In this document: positions 2,427-37,656 of the stretch, in pieces
Position numbering within the stretch: the stretch's first letter is position 1
Layout: every line of letters starts with the position of its first letter
Assembly: GCA_963817535.1 (NCBI GenBank)
Contig: CAWFOW010000011.1
Location: forward strand, 243,473-307,472
Length of the DNA stretch: 64,000 bases
Direction: 5' to 3'
Source of the DNA: an uncultured Alphaproteobacteria bacterium
GTDB taxonomy: Bacteria; Pseudomonadota; Alphaproteobacteria; MPNO01; DASWLB01
Translations under genes and position numbers: made by a program
The notes under the pieces: generated by a model
Databases searched by the model: none
What the model saw: only the letters and a program-made list of their open reading frames with translations
What the model was told of the DNA's origin: nothing

Positions 2427-4394
2427 TCACAGGCAGTTCTCGTTGCCCTCGATCCATACCTCGTGCCACAGCACGGCGTTGAGCACGGTCCAGAGATGGA
2501 AGCTGTACCCGCCGCCCGGCCCCATCTGATGCTTCAACAGGCCGGTGAAGTAGGCGTCGTCGAAGAAGCCCTCCTTGCGCAGCCGCGAGTTCTCGTACGC
2601 GGCCAGCATGCGGCGGCCGAAGTCCGGTTCCTTGAACCACTGCTCCATCGGCGCGCCGAACCCCTGCTTGCGCCGGTACAAGAGGTCATGATCGACATAC
2701 GGCTCCGACGCGCGCTTCAGCACCTTCTTGCCGATGCCGTCGCGCAGCTTGTAGGCGGGCGGCAGGCGCGTCGCGAACTCCACCACCTCGTGGTCGAGGA
2801 ACGGCACGCGCGCCTCCACCGAATGCGCCATCGTCATCTTGTCGACGCGCATCAGCAGGTGCTCGGGCAGGCGCAGCTTCATTTCCATGTAGGGGATCTT
2901 CTGCATCGTCTCGGGCGCGATCAGGTGCCCGGTCAGGCCGGAAAGGATATCCGACACGACGGCGTGGCTGTCCGGGCGTTGATAGGTCTCGGGCAGCAGC
3001 CCCTCGATCGGACAATCGATGCGGCCGGCGAACGGGCCGGGATCGGGGGTGAGCTGGCGGCGCATCTCGCCCCACCAGCAGACGGCGCCGCCCCAGAACA
3101 GCTCCTCGCCGGCGCGGGCGCGCGCGGCGATTTCCCGGTCCTCGGCCGGGGCATCGTTGCGCGGAAAGCGGCCGGCCAGTGCCGGCGCGTAGACCGTCTC
3201 CTCCTTGTCGCGGTAATGGTCGCACCACCAGTAGCCGAGGAAGTTCTCGTCGGCCCCTTCGCCCACCTGCACAACGGTGGTGCCGGACTTGCGCACCAGC
3301 TCGGCCAGGAAATAGAGCGGGATGCAGACATTGTCGGCGATCGGCTCGTCCTGCAGCTTGACCAGCAGCGGCAGGAACGCCTGCGCATCCTTCGAATCGA
3401 TGCGCGTCTCGTGGTGGTCGGTGCGGTAGCGCTCGGCGATGCGCCGCGCGTGATGGAACTCGTTCAGCTCGTCGTAGGATTCGTAGCCGACCGTGAAGGT
3501 CGTCACCGGGCGTGGCAGGATTTCGCTCATCAGCGCGGTGACGAGGCTCGAATCCACCCCGCCCGAAAGCAGCACGCCGAACGGCACGTCCGACACCATG
3601 CGCCGCTCGATCGCCCGGCGCAGCAGGCGCAGCAGCTCGTCGGCCGCCTCGTCCTCGCCGATGTCGCTCGCCCGAAGCGTGCCGGCCGCGCTCGGGCGGC
3701 AGTCCCAGTAGCGCTCGACGCTCGTCGCGCCGCGATGGTCGACGGTCAGCACGTGCCCTGCCGGCAGTTTGAATATGCCGCGGAACAGGGTCAGCGGCGC
3801 CGGCGTCACGATGAAGGTCAGGTAGTGCCAGAACGCCGCCCGGTCCATCTCACGCGGCACGTCCGGGTGGGCGAGAAGCGCGCGGATCTCGGAGGCGCAC
3901 AGCCATTCGCCCGACGCGGTGCGGGTGAAGTAGACCGGCTTCACCCCGGCGCGGTCGCGCGCCATGTGGAACTGCGGCCGGGCGGGATCGCGCGCGTCGT
4001 AGATGGCGAAGGCGAACATGCCATGGAAGCGCCGGACGCAGTCGAGCCCCCATTCCTCGTAGGCGTGCAGCAGAACCTCGGTATCGGAATGGTCGGTCGC
4101 CCAGCGATACTTGCCGAGCGCGGCCAACTCGGCGCGCAGGGCGGCATGGTTGTAGATCTCGCCGTTGAACGTGACCACCACGTCGCTCGCGGCGTTGGCC
4201 ATCGGCTGGGCGGCGCTGTCGGACAGGTCGATGATCGAAAGGCGGCGGTGCGCCATGCCGCAGCGGCCGTCGATCGCGCGCCACACGCCTGCCCCGTCGG
4301 GACCGCGATGCACCATGCGGTCGCGCATGGCGGCCAGGGTCTCCGTCGAACAGACCGACCCCTGGGGCTTGAACGCCCCGACAATTCCACACAT
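2427..4394 (-). CDS. asnB: asparagine synthetase (glutamine-hydrolysing) family amidotransferase, paralog 2
   Basis: 655 aa. MCGIVGAF N-terminus and SGGVDSS motif. Second tandem AsnB-type gene on the same strand. Confidence 0.85.
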   Translation of the reverse strand: MCGIVGAFKPQGSVCSTETLAAMRDRMVHRGPDGAGVWRAIDGRCGMAHRRLSIIDLSDSAAQPMANAASDVVVTFNGEIYNHAALRAELAALGKYRWATDHSDTEVLLHAYEEWGLDCVRRFHGMFAFAIYDARDPARPQFHMARDRAGVKPVYFTRTASGEWLCASEIRALLAHPDVPREMDRAAFWHYLTFIVTPAPLTLFRGIFKLPAGHVLTVDHRGATSVERYWDCRPSAAGTLRASDIGEDEAADELLRLLRRAIERRMVSDVPFGVLLSGGVDSSLVTALMSEILPRPVTTFTVGYESYDELNEFHHARRIAERYRTDHHETRIDSKDAQAFLPLLVKLQDEPIADNVCIPLYFLAELVRKSGTTVVQVGEGADENFLGYWWCDHYRDKEETVYAPALAGRFPRNDAPAEDREIAARARAGEELFWGGAVCWWGEMRRQLTPDPGPFAGRIDCPIEGLLPETYQRPDSHAVVSDILSGLTGHLIAPETMQKIPYMEMKLRLPEHLLMRVDKMTMAHSVEARVPFLDHEVVEFATRLPPAYKLRDGIGKKVLKRASEPYVDHDLLYRRKQGFGAPMEQWFKEPDFGRRMLAAYENSRLRKEGFFDDAYFTGLLKHQMGPGGGYSFHLWTVLNAVLWHEVWIEGNENCL

Positions 4395-4584
4395 CCGCGC
4401 CTCACACCGGCGGCGGCGCGCCGCCCGAGCGGCACCATAGTGGCCGCCTCAGGCGAATCCAAACGGAACGAGAGCAATATCGATTCAGGTCGAAACGCCG
4501 TGTGATGGCCTCGCCCTTCGACAAGCTCAGGGTGAGGCCAAAGCAAAAATCCTCATCCTGAGCTTGTCGAAGGATGAACCTGCT

Positions 4585-6699
4585 TCAGCCTTCGAACCGG
4601 ATGCGCCAGGTGACGGTATCGCCCGCCACCGGCAGGACCAGCTTTTTCGTGGCAACGAGCCGGCCATAGCCGGGGGCGAGCTGCGACTCCTCGACCCGCC
4701 ATGCGCCTGCTTCGGCCGAAACGGTAAGCCGCGCCGTCCCGTGGGAGAGCATGACGGACGCGGCCGCCGCGCGTTCGACCTGCACGTCGGGATGCAAATG
4801 CAGCCCAATCGTCCTGGTTCCCGGCGCGGCGCAGGAGTTGGCGATCTCGATGCCGTCCGGCGCGATCCGGATCGTGCGCCGGCAGGGCGCGCCGTACCCG
4901 TCATGCGCGCCGACGAACAGCGACTCGCCGGCCTCGATCACGCGGGGCCGTGCTGTGTCCAGCAGATGGAACAGGCTTTCGGAGCCCGGCGCGAATTGCT
5001 CCCGCCCGGCGATCGCCAGCGTGTTGTGCATCGCCGCGCCGCGGAAGCGGCCCCGCGCCTCGGGCAGCGGCGTGTAGAGATAGCTGCCGGAATCGACGAA
5101 GAACGGCACGCCGTCGAGCGCCAGCTCGAGCGCGAGCTGGTCGTTGTGCAAATGCGATCCCGTGCCGCCGCCCGCCAGTGCGCCGCAGCGGACGGCCAGC
5201 CACATCCGGCCGGTCTCGTAGACGTAGAGCCCGAATTGCGGGAAGCGGCGCGGATTGACCTTCGGCGGTTCGCCGGGCAGGGGGCCGAACGGCGCGCCGC
5301 CGGAAAGCGCCCGCACGATCGCGCCGTCGAGGCCGTTCGGCTCGCCCTCGAACAGCGCCGCGATGGCGTCCTCGAGATGGCGGTGGTCCTGCGAGGTCTC
5401 GCCAAGCCGGAAAAAGCGTCCGCAGTCATTGTCGCCGATATCCGGGACCAGCCCGTCGGGCCGCGTGACTCCGCGGGTGAAGCGCGCGATGGCGGCGAAG
5501 CGCTCGGCCAGGGCTGGCGTGAAGATGTCGAGCGAGGTCGCGTACTTCGCCCAGCCGGGGGTTTCGGCGAGGCGCGGCTGCGACCGGGCGAGCGCCGCGG
5601 GCACGCGCGCGCGCAATCCCGCGAGGACGGCCGCGGCAAAGGCGACCGTCTCGCCGCTGAGGCGATGGTAGGCGACCGAGTCCTCGAAGTTGCCGCCATC
5701 GGGGGGGAACTGGCGCGGAACCTCGGCTGCCAGCGCCGCGCTGGCATAGGCGAGCCACGAGTCGGTCTCGTCGGATGGCGGCAGATACGCGGCGCAGAAG
5801 GCGAGCCCCGCGATGTCGCACAGGAAATGGTTGCTGCGCGCTTCGGGCGACCATTCGAGATTGCGGATCAGGAACCGGCCGTGCTCGTAGAGCGCGCGCG
5901 CCAGCACGCGCTCGAACGCGGCATCGAACGTGGCGCCCAGCGCGCGGAACAGGTCCCAGGCCAGCGCGAGGTTCGCCGCGCGGATGCCGACATCCATCGG
6001 GCAGGCCCACTGCACCCCGAAGCGCGGCGGGTTGGCCGCCAGGAAGTCGAGTACCTGATGGCGGAATTCGCTGGCGTGGACCTCGGCGTGGTCCTGGACC
6101 AGCGCCAGTGCCGGCAAATGCTGCAGCCGGCCGAGCTCCCACGGCACCTTGACGTCGACCCCGCGTATCTCGCCATAGACGATGTCGCGCCACCATGTGC
6201 GCGCGTCCCAGCGGAAGCCCGACTTGAAGTCGATCTGCCAGTCGATCGGCACGTATCCGGGCGCGACCAGCCGCCAGAGACGCTGCGCTTCGGCAAGGGC
6301 GGCCGACGGCAAAATCTCGGCGAGCCAACGCCCGTCGCCGTCGATGGCCGGAGCCGGGACGGGCGGGAACACGATACCCTCCAGCCCCGCGCACGCCATG
6401 CCATGTTTCACGTGCAACAAACCCGAGCCCAGCAGGTCGAACCGGTGTTCGAGGGTGAGGTCGGCATCGCGTGCCCGCGCCGCGGCACGGAAGTGCAGGG
6501 CCGCGCCGGGTAGTTCTGCGACATGCGGGACCAGGCGCAGCGCGTCCTCGGGCAGATCGAGCGCGTAGGTCGGCTGGCGGAGATCGGCCGCTCGCGCGCG
6601 TGCGACCGTGGTGCGGCGCCGCCACAGCGCGCGAGCGCGCCGCAACGTCTCCTGCGGCGGAAGCGACGCCGCGCGGCGCACGTAATGGATCAGCCGCAC
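4585..6699 (-). CDS. heparinase II/III-like family protein
   Basis: 704 aa. The C-terminal GSHLHNDQLALEL block resembles the conserved G-H-x-H-x-D motif of heparinase II/III-like proteins. Its size and its context next to AsnB and GT4 genes are typical of LPS/EPS loci. Confidence 0.65.
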   Translation of the reverse strand: MRLIHYVRRAASLPPQETLRRARALWRRRTTVARARAADLRQPTYALDLPEDALRLVPHVAELPGAALHFRAAARARDADLTLEHRFDLLGSGLLHVKHGMACAGLEGIVFPPVPAPAIDGDGRWLAEILPSAALAEAQRLWRLVAPGYVPIDWQIDFKSGFRWDARTWWRDIVYGEIRGVDVKVPWELGRLQHLPALALVQDHAEVHASEFRHQVLDFLAANPPRFGVQWACPMDVGIRAANLALAWDLFRALGATFDAAFERVLARALYEHGRFLIRNLEWSPEARSNHFLCDIAGLAFCAAYLPPSDETDSWLAYASAALAAEVPRQFPPDGGNFEDSVAYHRLSGETVAFAAAVLAGLRARVPAALARSQPRLAETPGWAKYATSLDIFTPALAERFAAIARFTRGVTRPDGLVPDIGDNDCGRFFRLGETSQDHRHLEDAIAALFEGEPNGLDGAIVRALSGGAPFGPLPGEPPKVNPRRFPQFGLYVYETGRMWLAVRCGALAGGGTGSHLHNDQLALELALDGVPFFVDSGSYLYTPLPEARGRFRGAAMHNTLAIAGREQFAPGSESLFHLLDTARPRVIEAGESLFVGAHDGYGAPCRRTIRIAPDGIEIANSCAAPGTRTIGLHLHPDVQVERAAAASVMLSHGTARLTVSAEAGAWRVEESQLAPGYGRLVATKKLVLPVAGDTVTWRIRFEG

Positions 6700-35200: not shown

Positions 35201-35487
35201 GTGCGCGATCCGCTCCCTGAACGTTGATTGTTATCGTTCTCGAATCCGCACCTCAGCGTAGCCGATAAATTGAATGACGCAAACCGCGATTCAGGGGGAA
35301 CGCATTAAGCTTCCGTTCGTGCCGAGGAGCGCCTTGGCTGCGCCGGATTCATCAGAGTTTGCGAATGTATTGTGAAAACCGGAAGCGGCATTGCCCCTCA
35401 CCCTGCCCCTCTCCCGAGGGGGGGTTATATACTTTACGTACCGTGTCCTTTCCCCCATATTCAGAGGGACAGGCAGGGAACGCCACG

Positions 35488-36435
35488 ATGATCGATCTTC
35501 AAAACCCGATTTACACGAACGAAGACAAGGCGCGCGAGCATCTTGAGGCCCTTCAGTGGCCCGATGGTCCGTTCTGCCCGCGCTGTGGTGTTATGGGCGA
35601 CCACATCACCAAGCTGGCAGGAAAATCCACTCGCCCCGGTGTTTACAAGTGCAAGGATTGCCGCAAGCCCTTCACCGTGACAGTGGGCACGTTGTTCGAA
35701 CGCTCACACATTCCGTTGACCAAGTGGCTTCTGGCGACCGATCTTCTGTGCGCGTCCAAGAAGGGCATGAGCGCCCATCAGATGCACCGCATGTTGGGCG
35801 TGACGTACAAGACGGCGTGGTTCATGGCGCATCGCATCCGTGAGGCAATGCGCGAGATTTACCCGGAACCGTTGGGCGGCACTGGCAAGTGGGTTGAGGC
35901 GGACGAAACCGCCATCGGCGGCAGGGAACGTAATAAGCATCTCAGCAAGCGCAACCCGAAGAACATCGGCATGTCAGGCGGCAAGGAAATCGCCTTCTCG
36001 CTGGTCGAGCGCGGCGGCAAGGTCCGCTCGCATCATGTGCCCAACGTGAACGCCAAGACCCTGCGCCCCATCCTGGTTGCCCAGGTTGACCGCAAATCCA
36101 CGCTAATGACCGACGAAGCGGGCCAGTACCGCGTTGTCGGCCCCGAGTTCGCGGACCATCAGAAGGTCAATCACGGCATCGAGGAATATGTGCGAGGCGA
36201 GGCCTACACGAACACCATCGAGGGCTGTTTCTCGATCCTCAAGCGCGGGATCAACGGAACGTACCACCATGTCTCGCAACAGCACCTAAAGCGTTACCTC
36301 GGCGAATTTGATTTTCGATACAACGAGCGCGCCAAGCTTGGCGTGACCGATAGCGAGCGTACAATCAAAGCCCTCAAGGGCATTCAGGGTAAGCGCCTCA
36401 CTTATCGGCGGACTAACGAAGCCCCGAACGCCTAG
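35488..36435 (+). CDS. IS1595 family transposase
   Basis: N-terminal zinc ribbon CPRCG...CKDCRKPF followed by a DDE region. Start ATG verified at 35488. A GCGCAtttcATGCGC hairpin lies just after the stop. Confidence 0.8.
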   Translation: MIDLQNPIYTNEDKAREHLEALQWPDGPFCPRCGVMGDHITKLAGKSTRPGVYKCKDCRKPFTVTVGTLFERSHIPLTKWLLATDLLCASKKGMSAHQMHRMLGVTYKTAWFMAHRIREAMREIYPEPLGGTGKWVEADETAIGGRERNKHLSKRNPKNIGMSGGKEIAFSLVERGGKVRSHHVPNVNAKTLRPILVAQVDRKSTLMTDEAGQYRVVGPEFADHQKVNHGIEEYVRGEAYTNTIEGCFSILKRGINGTYHHVSQQHLKRYLGEFDFRYNERAKLGVTDSERTIKALKGIQGKRLTYRRTNEAPNA

Positions 36436-36477
36436 GCAGAAGGCCGCGCATTTCATGCGCTGGCGCAAGAGGCAGAA

Positions 36478-36735
36478 ATGAGCGATCCAGAGGTTTGGGC
36501 GAAATATGACGCGCTCGGCGAAGATGGAGTGCGTCTGCGCATAGCCCAAAAGGCGTACAATGGACACAACTTACAACTTGCTCAAGAATGGCTTCGGCGA
36601 CGTGAGGACAAACGATCTTCGCGATCAGACAGGCGAAAGGATACGAGGGATAATATAGCCGCTATCGCGGCAATCGTTGCCGCCGTGGCCGCGACGATTG
36701 GCGCTATCGCTTCGATGGTCATGCTTTTTTTCTAG
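36478..36735 (+). CDS. small tail-anchored membrane protein (passenger gene 1)
   Basis: 85 aa: soluble N-terminus, Arg/Lys/Asp-rich linker (RRREDKRSSRSDRRKDTRDN), single C-terminal TM helix (IAAIAAIVAAVAATIGAIASMVMLFF). AAGAGG RBS. Confidence 0.4.
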   Translation: MSDPEVWAKYDALGEDGVRLRIAQKAYNGHNLQLAQEWLRRREDKRSSRSDRRKDTRDNIAAIAAIVAAVAATIGAIASMVMLFF

Positions 36736-36854
36736 TGGCCTTTCCCGCTTTCTTAAAAGAATGCGGCTTCGGTGGTGTTTTCAGCATCCGCTTTAGCACC
36801 GCGTCACGTTTAGCCGGATTAGAATCCGGCCCCTGATCTTGGGGAGGCTTCGAT

Positions 36855-37472
36855 ATGCCTGATTTTGAGGCTCTTGAGCCCATTATGCGATCCTATGCCC
36901 TGGTTGGTTGTTTTTTACGCGGTTGGGCATTGCTTGAAGGGAATATAAAACAAGCCATCGGAAAGTCTCTGGGGCTGGGGACGGTCCAGTTGGCCATCGT
37001 TGCATCTAATATGCAATTTAGGGATAAGATCAATACATTGCGCACGGCCGTTGATATTTCCCGAATCCAACCGGATGAAAGAAAAAAGCATTTCAAAGCC
37101 GTATTACAGGATATAGCCGATTACTCCCATAACCGAAACATGATGGCGCATGACGTATTCGGGCCATCCCCAGATGGCGGCGTTGATTTTCTCGTCATTA
37201 AGGCGCGCGGGAGCCTTCAAGTTCCCGATACCGTCTGGCGCGTACAAGACTTCATCGAAGCATACCGAAAAATTGCTGATTGGACGGCCGAAGTAGACAG
37301 TCTGGCCGATGAGTTAGACACAGCGGCCCTAGTTAACGCCTTGATGCAACAAATGAGCCAGCCAACCACTCCCGAACCCGGCGGGTTAGGTCTTCTAGGT
37401 CTCCTGTTCCACCCGCCTCAAGACGCTCCCGATTCCAGCCATCATCCAGTCACTCCAGAAACAGAGTCTTGA
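36855..37472 (+). CDS. HEPN-like domain protein with Rx4H motif (passenger gene 2)
   Basis: 205 aa. YSHNRNMMAHDVF contains R-x4-H; the region is predicted helical. GGGAGG RBS 8 nt upstream of the ATG at 36855. Low-GC coding sequence. Confidence 0.4.
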   Translation: MPDFEALEPIMRSYALVGCFLRGWALLEGNIKQAIGKSLGLGTVQLAIVASNMQFRDKINTLRTAVDISRIQPDERKKHFKAVLQDIADYSHNRNMMAHDVFGPSPDGGVDFLVIKARGSLQVPDTVWRVQDFIEAYRKIADWTAEVDSLADELDTAALVNALMQQMSQPTTPEPGGLGLLGLLFHPPQDAPDSSHHPVTPETES

Positions 37473-37656
37473 ACGCCTCCATATCTCGCCCGAGGGCCGG
37501 GGCGGCCTGCCCCGGATTAGATAGGGAGCGATTATGGTACGCCAAGTGTATAATCCCCTCCTTGGGAGAGGGACAGGTGAGGGGGCAGACCTCGAAAGTT
37601 TCACAAGCTCTCAGGACGAACGGCGATCGGGCCAATGCGATCGCCCCGAGCCGCGA

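What the first reader, a model, noticed from the sequence alone, without database searches (positions are those of the whole stretch)
36478..37472. Candidate two-gene toxin/defence cassette: tail-anchored membrane peptide + HEPN-like (Rx4H) protein as IS cargo
Passenger gene 1 (85 aa) is a soluble domain, a highly charged linker and one C-terminal TM helix.

Passenger gene 2 (205 aa) contains the HEPN-type YSHNRNMMAHDVF motif (Rx4H, described in the feature entry) in an otherwise helical protein. HEPN RNases are recurrent effectors in abortive-infection and toxin-antitoxin systems.

Pairing a HEPN-like protein with a small membrane protein, mobilised by an IS, is not a configuration I can assign to a named system. 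It could be a small undescribed defence or addiction module. I could not see an MNT (minimal nucleotidyltransferase) partner or a canonical antitoxin.
Basis: partly seen in the sequence, partly recalled or inferred. Interest (0 to 1): 0.7.

Follow-up and report, generated by a model that had tools for sequence, protein, structure and literature searches.

The report
RNase-like cargo module of an insertion sequence

Summary
Both ORFs exist at the stated coordinates, inside a 2,139-bp IS1595-family insertion sequence (35420-37558) in a low-GC island.

- **85-aa protein.** It is a helical hairpin, a charged linker and a C-terminal transmembrane helix.
- **205-aa protein.** It matches no Pfam, NCBIfam, PADLOC or PDB sequence. 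It nevertheless belongs to a large family (815 clusters at 50% identity) in which E28, R94 and H99 are invariant and N95 nearly so.

The interpretation needs correction in two ways. First, the conserved unit is not membrane protein plus HEPN. It is the HEPN-like gene plus a missed 54-aa, very basic gene on the minus strand (36719-36883), found beside the HEPN-like gene in 26 distinct loci, usually with overlapping start codons. Second, the membrane gene is one of several alternatives in a variable slot.

Sister ISs with the same termini carry PIN RNases instead. Toxin/defence function is inferred, not shown.

The parts
35420..35442 (+). Left terminal inverted repeat of the IS (GGGGGTTATATACTTTACGTACC)
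   Evidence: It pairs with 37536-37558. It matches the end consensus GGnnATTATATACTTGAC shared by related elements, and that consensus has only two matches in the window against 0.04 expected.
35488..36435 (+). IS1595-family transposase, 315 aa, apparently full length
   Evidence: Pfam DDE_Tnp_IS1595 9.1e-39 and Zn_ribbon_IS1595 1.6e-11. NCBIfam transpos_IS1595 5.3e-57, covering profile positions 1-215 of 215. It is 53-72% identical to the transposases of the related elements.
36478..36735 (+). Passenger gene in the variable 'slot 2': 85-aa tail-anchored membrane protein (helical hairpin, charged linker, Ala/Ile-rich TM helix at about residues 60-84, 36655-36729)
   Evidence: AlphaFold model and hydropathy. 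Nine database entries match it, one of them identical to the query. Wherever context is available, the homologue sits between an IS1595 transposase (or its remnant) and a HEPN-like gene. No family match.
36719..36883 (-). Missed gene: small, very basic protein (54 aa, pI 11.2). Core motif KRDAVLKRMLKTPPKPH followed by a Lys-rich tail. It overlaps the 3' end of the membrane gene and the 5' end of the HEPN-like gene.
   Evidence: An ORF with the same motif lies directly upstream of, and divergent from, the HEPN-like gene in 26 distinct loci. The third codon position is the most variable (entropy 1.21/1.05/1.61). Source annotations call it as a gene in L003 and L006. No Pfam or PHROG match.
36855..37472 (+). 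205-aa acidic (pI 5.0) HEPN-like protein; Shine-Dalgarno GGGGAGG at 36841-36847
37134..37151 (+). R94-N95-M-M-A98-H99: Rx4H motif, the candidate RNase active site
   Evidence: R and H are invariant and N and A at least 90% conserved in 90 sequences. R, N and H are also invariant across six mutually unalignable position-equivalent families. The motif lies at the C-terminal end of helix 74-99 in the model, which is where the HEPN motif lies according to PMC3710099.
36936..36950 (+). E28-G-N-I-K32: upstream acidic residue in an Ex3[KRN] context
   Evidence: E28 is invariant. The residue four positions later is K, R or N in all 13 close homologues. [quoted passage not shown]
37536..37558 (-). Right terminal inverted repeat of the IS (GGGGATTATACACTTGGCGTACC on the minus strand)
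35392..35419 (.). Outer flank. It forms a 28-nt inverted repeat with 37559-37587, immediately outside the IS termini; no clean target-site duplication.
   Evidence: The motif occurs nowhere else in the window. Unexplained.
37559..37587 (.). Outer flank, partner of 35392-35419

Best explanation
The interval is the cargo half of a 2.14-kb IS1595-family insertion sequence of the group with ends GGnnATTATATACTTGAC. From memory, ISfinder's ISNwi1 subgroup has such ends.

**The three cargo genes**
1. The 205-aa protein is a member of a large, unnamed branch of the HEPN superfamily. It is most likely a metal-independent endoribonuclease that uses R94/N95/H99 with E28.
2. Its constant partner is a ~45-55-aa, very basic protein encoded head-to-head with it on the other strand.
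3. The 85-aa tail-anchored membrane protein occupies a variable slot and is an exchangeable accessory.

**Proposed mechanism**
- The HEPN-like protein is a toxin or effector RNase.
- The small basic protein holds it in check, by protein-level neutralisation, by mutual antisense transcription (the start codons overlap, so each promoter must lie within the other gene), or both.
- Together they form a toxin-antitoxin-like conflict module. It travels with the IS, stabilises it (addiction) or confers abortive-infection-type protection, and can outlive the transposase.

**Shown**
- Gene structure, IS boundaries and family size.
- Invariant residues and fold topology.
- Synteny across loci and mosaic evolution.
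- PIN RNases in sister elements.

**Inferred**
- RNase activity and toxicity.
- The neutralising role of the small protein.
- The biological benefit.
For: **HEPN features**
- Rx4H is invariant, with N after R.
- E28 lies in an Ex3[KRN] context.
- The motif sits at the end of the helix that precedes the last long helix, in a model with pLDDT 92. This matches the published definition.
- Relatives of the position-equivalent protein of element L007 pass Pfam gathering scores for MtlR (25.6-26.6 against 25.2) and DUF4145 (23.4 against 23.1).
- Profile-profile comparison aligns the K-helix and RNxxAH in register (E 0.046).
- R, N and H are invariant across six families.

**Cargo travels as a unit**
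- Clean 8-9-bp target duplications flank the whole transposase-plus-cargo unit in L016, L034, L007, L006 and L020.

**Linkage**
- The HEPN-like gene lies downstream of an IS1595 transposase or its remnant in most loci that have enough context.
- The small ORF is adjacent in 26 distinct loci.

**Selection independent of transposition**
- In L005, L015/L024, L018 and L019 the transposase has decayed to a C-terminal remnant. The small ORF and the HEPN-like gene remain intact.

**Conflict-type evolution**
- L006 and L007 share 76% nucleotide identity across the inverted repeats and tnp, and 69% across the small-ORF region. Their membrane and HEPN-like genes show no detectable similarity.

**Parallel cargo**
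- Sister ISs with the same termini, in Roseomonas marmotae and Methylobacterium oryzae plasmids, carry a PIN (VapC-type) RNase plus a similar small basic protein.

**Precedent**
- Toxin-antitoxin pairs, including PIN and HEPN toxins, are integral to 39 of 190 Tn3-family transposons (PMC7157771).
Against: - No direct profile hit of the 205-aa family to any HEPN model. A single-sequence Pfam scan found nothing, and each of the 90 members was scanned.
- Foldseek against the PDB found nothing significant.
- hhalign E 0.046 is marginal.
- The conserved acidic residue lies in the first long helix of the model. The HEPN paper places it in helix 2.
- No hit to any PADLOC defence model, for this protein or for its positional equivalents.
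- The arrangement is unlike classical type II toxin-antitoxin pairs. The genes are divergent, the putative antitoxin is basic and has no recognised DNA-binding fold, and the putative toxin is acidic.
- Intact HEPN-like genes without an adjacent small ORF exist (L017, L030, L031/32, L037).
- A related small protein may occur in an element with no RNase gene at all (Pseudosulfitobacter, 1,869 bp).
- Part of the MtlR branch of HEPN is non-catalytic.
- No expression, toxicity or phage data exist.
Confidence: 0.5

Rival explanations
1. **Transposition accessory or regulator.** The small basic protein and the HEPN-like protein serve the IS itself. The HEPN-like protein might act as an MtlR-like RNA-binding repressor, or as an RNase acting on tnp mRNA. 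The small protein might be a nucleic-acid-binding cofactor. Neither would be a toxin or a defence protein.
For: - Strict placement inside the inverted repeats, and linkage to the transposase across deep divergence (53-77% transposase identity).
- A small protein of possibly the same family is the only extra gene annotated in the 1.87-kb Pseudosulfitobacter element, which is present on 30 plasmid records. Intermediate variants link the two types.
- The nearest Pfam relatives of the positional equivalents are MtlR, a regulator.
- The small protein is highly basic (pI 11.2).
Against: - The module stays intact where the transposase has decayed (L005, L015, L018, L019).
- The HEPN-like gene is swapped for unalignable HEPN-like families, or for an unrelated RNase fold (PIN), on near-identical backbones. 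That is hard to reconcile with a specific cofactor.
- The catalytic R/N/H triad is invariant, whereas non-catalytic MtlR members have lost it.
- Homology between the two small-protein types is weak (E about 0.007-0.02 in a tiny search space).
Confidence: 0.2
2. **The first reader's model.** The tail-anchored membrane peptide and the HEPN-like protein form an obligate two-gene toxin or abortive-infection cassette, with the membrane protein as effector or sensor.
For: - Every homologue of the membrane protein with usable context lies upstream of a HEPN-like gene in an IS1595 element: the window, L003/L004, L005, L006, L007 and L008-L013.
- Its TM segment (IAAIAAIVAAVAATIGAI) is better conserved than its soluble domain, suggesting a specific membrane function.
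Against: - Only 2 (window, L005) of the more than 20 loci of this HEPN family carry the membrane gene. Other copies carry a 95-aa protein, a 111-aa or 165-aa zinc-ribbon protein, or DUF1508 plus the membrane gene in that slot.
- In L001 and L002 the HEPN-like gene keeps the small ORF but has no membrane gene.
- In L003 a bidirectional terminator hairpin separates the membrane gene from the small-ORF/HEPN unit. L006 and L007 carry a similar hairpin, seen by inspection of the sequence.
Confidence: 0.15
3. **Hitch-hiking genes with no current function.** These are decaying or neutral ORFs carried along by the IS, and the Rx4H is a relic.
For: - The window copy lacks a clean target duplication.
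- It lacks the last ~8 residues of the family's conserved tail.
- It has lost the ancestral start codon of the small ORF.
- Many related loci are degraded: L021, L022, L023 and L040.
Against: - 815 clusters with seven invariant residues.
- A confident fold.
- ORFs maintained in more than 25 loci, with a coding-type substitution pattern for the small gene.
- Intact ORFs persisting after transposase decay.
Confidence: 0.1

Closest known systems
Toxin-antitoxin pairs integral to Tn3-family transposons (Lima-Mendez et al. 2020, PMC7157771)
   Same: RNase-type toxin genes (PIN, HEPN and others) sit inside the transposon next to the transposition genes. Different toxin families were acquired or exchanged repeatedly on related backbones. 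The proposed role is stabilisation or 'take me or die' invasion.
   Different: - The transposon family differs: a small DDE IS1595 element of ~2.1 kb with no resolvase or res site.
- The HEPN toxin in Tn3 (TnSod9) comes with an MNT antitoxin, which is absent here.
- The partner here is an unannotated small basic protein encoded divergently, with overlapping start codons.
HEPN superfamily, DUF4145/MtlR-like branch (Anantharaman et al. 2013, PMC3710099)
   Same: - Rx4H with a polar N after the R.
- An upstream conserved acidic residue in an Ex3[KR]-like context.
- A helical bundle with the motif at the end of the penultimate core helix.
- Rapid sequence divergence.
- Association with mobile or conflict contexts.
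   Different: - No significant direct profile match.
- An extra pair of beta-hairpins (residues 101-128) follows the motif.
- A long C-terminal helix is followed by a conserved disordered tail.
- The acidic residue is in the first long helix of the model.
HepT/MntA (type VII HEPN-MNT) toxin-antitoxin systems
   Different: No nucleotidyltransferase gene lies in or near the element, so neutralisation by AMPylation is excluded.
IS1595-family insertion sequences with passenger genes (Siguier, Gagnevin & Chandler 2009; ISfinder ISNwi1 subgroup). Recalled from memory; the paper could not be read here.
   Same: A DDE transposase with an N-terminal zinc ribbon, ends of the GGnnATTAT type, 8-bp duplications, and extra ORFs between the transposase gene and the right end.
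   Different: As far as I recall, those passenger ORFs were left as hypothetical proteins. Assigning them to HEPN-like or PIN RNases plus a conserved small basic protein does not appear in any paper found here: a search for HEPN with IS1595 returned 3 papers, whose titles and abstracts (not read in full) do not concern this association.

Membership tests
HEPN superfamily | Conserved Rx4-6H motif | tested here: met
   R94 and H99 are invariant in 90 family representatives. They are also invariant across six position-equivalent families.
HEPN superfamily | Polar residue (N/D/H) immediately after the R | tested here: met
   N95 is at least 90% conserved and invariant in the cross-family alignment. 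The definition is from PMC3710099.
HEPN superfamily | Second conserved acidic residue upstream, typically Ex3[KR], in helix 2 and close to the motif | tested here: inconclusive
   E28 is invariant, with K, R or N four residues later. In the model it lies in the first long helix (9-39). Its spatial proximity to R94/H99 could not be measured because no coordinates were available.
HEPN superfamily | [quoted passage not shown] | tested here: inconclusive
HEPN superfamily | Profile match to a HEPN-clan family | tested here: inconclusive
   - There is no direct hit: Pfam scans of the window protein and of each of 90 members found nothing, and neither did a PDB profile search.
- Indirect support exists. 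Relatives of the position-equivalent L007 protein pass the gathering scores for MtlR and DUF4145.
- Comparing the two family profiles with hhalign gives E 0.046, in the correct register.
HEPN-MNT (type VII) toxin-antitoxin | Adjacent minimal nucleotidyltransferase antitoxin | tested here: not met
   No such ORF or domain is in the element or its flanks. None occurs in any related locus.
Type II toxin-antitoxin operon | Co-directional two-gene operon with a DNA-binding antitoxin; toxicity neutralised by the partner | tested here: not met
   The genes are divergent with overlapping 5' ends. The small protein has no recognised domain. Toxicity and neutralisation cannot be tested with these tools.
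Known anti-phage defence systems (PADLOC-DB v2) | Match to a defence-system protein model | tested here: not met
   No hit for the three window proteins scanned (transposase, membrane protein, HEPN-like protein). The positional equivalents give only sub-threshold hits around the motif, to Cas13a, Csm6 and CARF-HEPN models, E 0.02-0.04. The small basic protein was not scanned against PADLOC.
IS1595 family insertion sequence | DDE_Tnp_IS1595 transposase with an N-terminal zinc ribbon | tested here: met
IS1595 family insertion sequence | Terminal inverted repeats enclosing the genes | tested here: met
   35420-35442 and 37536-37558 match at 18 of 23 positions. They share the end consensus of seven related elements.
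IS1595 family insertion sequence | 8-bp target-site duplication | tested here: not met
   - In the window copy the flanks read TCCCGAGG and TCCTTGGG (5 of 8 match).
- Those flanks are inverted rather than direct repeats.
- Related copies L016, L034, L007, L006 and L020 do have clean duplications.
Tail-anchored membrane protein (85-aa gene) | Single C-terminal hydrophobic helix with a cytosolic N-terminal domain and no signal peptide | tested here: met
   Kyte-Doolittle 19-residue maximum 2.52, for the window starting at residue 60. Predicted helix at 61-82. The TM segment is conserved in 9 homologues. Membrane insertion itself was not tested.

The most novel reading that the evidence does not exclude
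A whole clade of IS1595 insertion sequences carries, as an integral part, an exchangeable RNase cassette (several mutually unalignable HEPN-like families, or PIN) governed by one conserved small basic protein. Its gene overlaps the RNase gene head-to-head. That would be a new architecture of toxin control, combining protein and antisense transcription. It would make these the smallest known transposable elements with their own addiction or immunity module, and it would define a new HEPN family and a new antitoxin-like family.
Probability: 0.2. Interest if true: 0.7.

Novelty: new variant of a known kind. Interest (0 to 1): 0.5.

Why it matters
Insertion sequences are usually treated as bare transposase genes. 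Here a clade of them consistently carries RNase-type genes (HEPN-like or PIN) plus a conserved small protein. If these act as toxin-antitoxin or abortive-infection modules, three things follow.

- The idea of toxin-antitoxin pairs as part of the transposition module extends from large Tn3 transposons to ~2-kb ISs.
- A compact natural system becomes available for studying how toxin cassettes are swapped on a constant mobile backbone.

It would also give a practical annotation rule for these elements in alphaproteobacterial genomes.

Tried and rejected
**Direct family assignment of the 205-aa protein**
- Pfam, NCBIfam, PADLOC and PHROGs gave nothing.
- A Pfam scan of 90 members gave only scattered single chance hits.
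- A PDB sequence-profile search found nothing.
- Foldseek against the PDB and BFVD found nothing significant. The best viral hit had E 3e-3 and no name.
- The AFDB50 library was not available.

**Searches limited by the tools**
- The word-indexed protein search found only 3 and 9 database entries, the query itself included in each count. That wrongly suggested rarity, and the exhaustive HMM search corrected it.
- The search for related loci with the 90-sequence alignment failed for lack of a conserved stretch, so a 13-sequence alignment was used instead.

**Other negative results**
- tblastn against phages found no match.
- tblastn against plasmids found only a truncated Bradyrhizobium homologue next to an AbiGi gene. 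This was not informative.
- An Rfam scan of the element gave only a sub-threshold isrK hit, taken as chance.
- A long outer palindrome of more than 100 nt around the IS was rejected. The alignment score of 59 barely exceeded the shuffle maximum of 51. Only the inner ~28 nt are convincing.
- The flanking 28-nt repeat is not a dispersed REP element; there are no other copies in the window.
- The host organism could not be identified.
- Homology between the small basic protein and the small proteins behind the PIN genes is suggestive but unproven. Intermediate variants support it.
Full report
**1. What is at the coordinates**

- The window has ORFs at 36478-36735 (+, 85 aa) and 36855-37472 (+, 205 aa), as reported.
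- They lie in a 50-60% GC island (about 35.25-37.6 kb) within 65-75% GC DNA.
- Immediately upstream, 35488-36435 encodes a full-length IS1595-family transposase. Pfam gives DDE_Tnp_IS1595 9e-39 and Zn_ribbon_IS1595 2e-11. NCBIfam gives transpos_IS1595 5e-57.
- Comparison with related elements gives the end consensus GGnnATTATATACTTGAC. The window has exactly two matches, at 35420 (+) and 37558 (-), against 0.04 expected.
- The element is therefore 35420-37558 (2,139 bp), and both flagged genes are inside it.
- The flanks are housekeeping genes (an ABC transporter and an aminotransferase), not a defence island.

**2. The 85-aa protein**

- It has no family match.
- AlphaFold, run on 9 homologues, predicts a helical hairpin (4-23 and 30-53; pLDDT 79-88), a charged linker and a helix at 61-82.
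- Hydropathy peaks at 2.52, for the 19-residue window starting at residue 60. The protein's pI is 9.7.
- The Ala/Ile/Gly-rich TM segment is better conserved than the soluble part.

**3. The 205-aa protein**

*Family size and conservation*
- Single-sequence and 90-member scans against Pfam, NCBIfam, PADLOC, PHROGs and PDB sequences found nothing.
- The word-indexed search suggested rarity, with 3 database entries including the query itself. The exhaustive HMM search found 815 clusters at 50% identity with E<=1e-3, and 581 with E<=1e-10.
- In a 90-sequence alignment, G18, E28, N52, K58, R94, H99 and W128 are invariant. N95 and A98 are at least 90% conserved.
- E28 is followed four residues later by K, R or N.

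*Structure*
- The AlphaFold model is confident (pLDDT 92, pTM 0.80). It has helices 9-39, 43-51/55-68 and 74-99, two beta-hairpins at 101-128, helix 130-168 and a disordered tail.
- RNxxAH sits at the C-terminal end of helix 74-99.
[quoted passage not shown] It describes a polar residue after the R and an upstream acidic residue, often as Ex3[KR] (PMC3710099).
- Foldseek finds nothing significant.

*Overall*
- HEPN-superfamily membership is well supported by motif and topology. It is only weakly supported by global structure scores and is not supported by direct profile hits. I put it at about 0.8.

**4. Related loci change the picture**

*Architecture.* Contexts of homologues of either gene show one recurring layout:
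- an IS1595 transposase (308-317 aa);
- then a variable small gene;
- then a small minus-strand ORF;
- then a 189-233-aa protein carrying R-N-x-x-[A/L]-H at about residue 95-115.

*The last gene.* It falls into at least six families that BLAST cannot align: the window type, plus the L003, L006, L007, L008 and L015 types.
- A joint alignment keeps R, N and H invariant and aligns an E or D in helix 1.
- The window-family HMM reaches the L003 type at E 4e-4.
- Relatives of the L007 type pass Pfam's gathering thresholds for the HEPN-clan families MtlR and DUF4145, with weak Abi_2 and RiboL-PSP-HEPN hits.
- hhalign of the two family profiles aligns the conserved K-helix and RNxxAH in register (E 0.046).

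*Transposition as a unit.* Clean 8-9-bp target duplications flank whole elements in L016, L034, L007, L006 and L020. The cargo therefore transposes together with the transposase.

**5. The missed gene**

- Between the two flagged genes, on the minus strand, lies 36719-36883. It encodes 54 aa with pI 11.2: MGSRASKSGISKPPQDQGPDSNPAKRDAVLKRMLKTPPKPHSFKKAGKATRKKA.
- An ORF with the same pattern lies directly upstream of, and divergent from, the HEPN-like gene in 26 distinct loci. The pattern is:
  - an N-terminal M[AS]K.P;
  - an acidic stretch;
  - a short amphipathic helix;
  - TPPKPH or a close variant;
  - a Lys/Pro-rich tail.
- These loci include L001 and L002, which lack the membrane gene.
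- In most loci the two start codons overlap within a CATG.
- The third codon position is the most variable (entropy 1.21/1.05/1.61), and TPPKPH codons differ synonymously between loci. The ORF is therefore coding.
- Source annotations called it as a gene in L003 and L006.
- In L003 a bidirectional terminator hairpin separates the transposase/slot-2 unit from this small-ORF/HEPN unit. L006 and L007 have a similar hairpin, seen by inspection of the sequence.
- In the window copy, the 3' ends of the membrane gene and the small ORF overlap by 17 nt.

**6. The membrane gene is optional**

- Among the more than 20 loci of the window-type HEPN family, only the window and Minwuia sp. (L005) have the membrane gene.
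- Others have a 95-aa protein, or 111-aa or 165-aa zinc-ribbon proteins. L003 has DUF1508 plus the membrane gene.
- Conversely, every membrane-gene homologue with usable context is followed by a small ORF and a HEPN-like gene.

**7. Evolutionary behaviour**

| Transposase status (loci with enough upstream sequence) | Number | Loci |
|---|---|---|
| Full length | 12 | not listed individually |
| Frameshifted | 3 | not listed individually |
| Reduced to a C-terminal remnant | 4 | L005, L015/24, L018, L019 |
| Undetectable | 5 | L017, L022, L030, L031, L037 |

- In all four remnant cases the small ORF and the HEPN-like gene are intact.
- L006 and L007 share 76% nucleotide identity over the inverted repeats and tnp, 69% over the small-ORF region, and identical right ends. 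Their membrane and HEPN-like genes show no detectable similarity. The backbone is constant while the cassettes are exchanged or evolve very fast.
- Sister ISs with the same termini, on plasmids of Roseomonas marmotae and Methylobacterium oryzae, carry a 266-288-aa protein, a PIN-domain (VapC-type) RNase (Pfam PIN 3e-12 and 5e-6) and a 61-62-aa basic protein.
- A Pseudosulfitobacter element of 1,869 bp has a 46-aa protein as its only other annotated gene besides the transposase.
- Small-ORF variants in L021, L023 and L040 (DAWERFGEFVKRIARAGPQHR) bridge the two small-protein types. Statistical support is weak.

**8. Mechanism**

*Most likely (0.5).*
- The HEPN-like protein is a metal-independent RNase effector.
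- The small basic protein, and/or the mutually antisense transcription forced by the head-to-head overlap, restrains it.
- The pair acts as a toxin-antitoxin-like or abortive-infection-like conflict module. It is integral to this IS clade and can persist after transposase decay.
- The membrane protein is an exchangeable accessory.

*Status of the evidence.* All functional steps are inferred. The anatomy, conservation, synteny and mosaicism are shown.

*Counter-evidence.*
- No defence-model hits.
- A gene arrangement and charge pattern unlike classical toxin-antitoxin pairs.
- Intact HEPN-like genes without an adjacent small ORF (L017, L030, L031, L037).
- Possibly a small protein in an element without any RNase.

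*Rivals.*
- A transposition regulator or cofactor (0.2).
- Non-functional hitch-hikers (0.1).

**9. Comparison with what is known**

- The closest analogue is the set of toxin-antitoxin pairs embedded in Tn3-family transposons. These include PIN and HEPN/MNT, found in 39 of 190 elements (PMC7157771).
- The present case differs in transposon family, in its small size, in lacking MNT, and in the divergent overlapping small gene.
- It is not a HepT/MntA system, because there is no MNT. It is not a canonical type II operon.
- IS1595 elements with passenger genes were described in 2009. This, and the match of the ends to ISfinder's ISNwi1 subgroup, are from my memory and were not checked.
- No paper found here links HEPN with IS1595.

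**10. Verdict**

- Observation: confirmed.
- Interpretation: partly supported.
- Novelty: a new variant of a known kind, namely toxin-type cargo integral to a transposable element, plus a new HEPN branch.
- Interest: 0.5.

Noticed in passing
window 35392-35419 and 37559-37587: The 28 nt immediately outside the two IS termini are inverted repeats of each other (24 of 28). There is no clean 8-bp target duplication (TCCCGAGG against TCCTTGGG), although related elements have clean duplications. The motif occurs nowhere else in the window. Possible causes are insertion into a palindrome or a nested element.
   Followed up: partly
window 37360-37472; alignment A4: The HEPN-like family has a conserved, predicted-disordered C-terminal tail (GLGLLGL...PDS...TPxTxPQTPP). 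The window copy stops about 8 residues early (…TPETES*). The tail's function is unknown. TPP also recurs in the small protein's TPPKPH motif.
   Followed up: no
L045 (Roseomonas marmotae p1318-1, NZ_CP061092.1) 2430-5033; L044 (Methylobacterium oryzae pMOC1): Sister IS1595 elements with the same terminal repeats carry a 266-288-aa unknown protein, a PIN-domain RNase and a 61-62-aa basic protein instead of the HEPN-type cargo.
   Followed up: partly
L047 (Pseudosulfitobacter pseudonitzschiae plasmid P1) 2402-4270: A 1,869-bp element of the same group, present on 30 plasmid records. Its only annotated genes are the transposase and a 46-aa protein (…DDDEARFNERLRKLAKQK…), plus about 450 bp of unassigned sequence. 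It is flanked by an A-run duplication.
   Followed up: partly
L015 / L024 3139-4651: Two different HEPN-like genes in tandem (213 aa with FRNDILHKF, then 233 aa of the window type) lie behind one small ORF and a transposase remnant.
   Followed up: no
L003 1744-1935: In one element a DUF1508 (YegP-like) gene sits between the transposase and the membrane gene.
   Followed up: no
window 36655-36729 and the same region in L003, L005 and L008: The TM-segment coding sequence, (GCN ATC GCN)n, is quasi-palindromic at the codon level. Its reverse complement also translates to an Ala/Ile-rich peptide and matches the membrane-protein HMM on the minus strand. This is an artefact, but it also produces short inverted and direct repeats in this region.
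   Followed up: partly
L043 (Bradyrhizobium japonicum p2S06B, NZ_CP066353.1) 3474-3896: A truncated (140-aa) homologue of the HEPN-like protein lies beside a gene annotated as AbiGi-family antitoxin, in an IS-rich region with no IS1595 transposase nearby.
   Followed up: no
L007 1639-2208: The HEPN-like protein of this element matches PHROG 22031 (unknown function) at E 2e-14, so relatives of that type occur in phage genomes.
   Followed up: no
L017 (Amorphus coralli DSM 19760) 3342-4561: An intact window-type HEPN-like gene has no small ORF and no transposase nearby. A GIY-YIG-type 94-aa ORF lies upstream.
   Followed up: no
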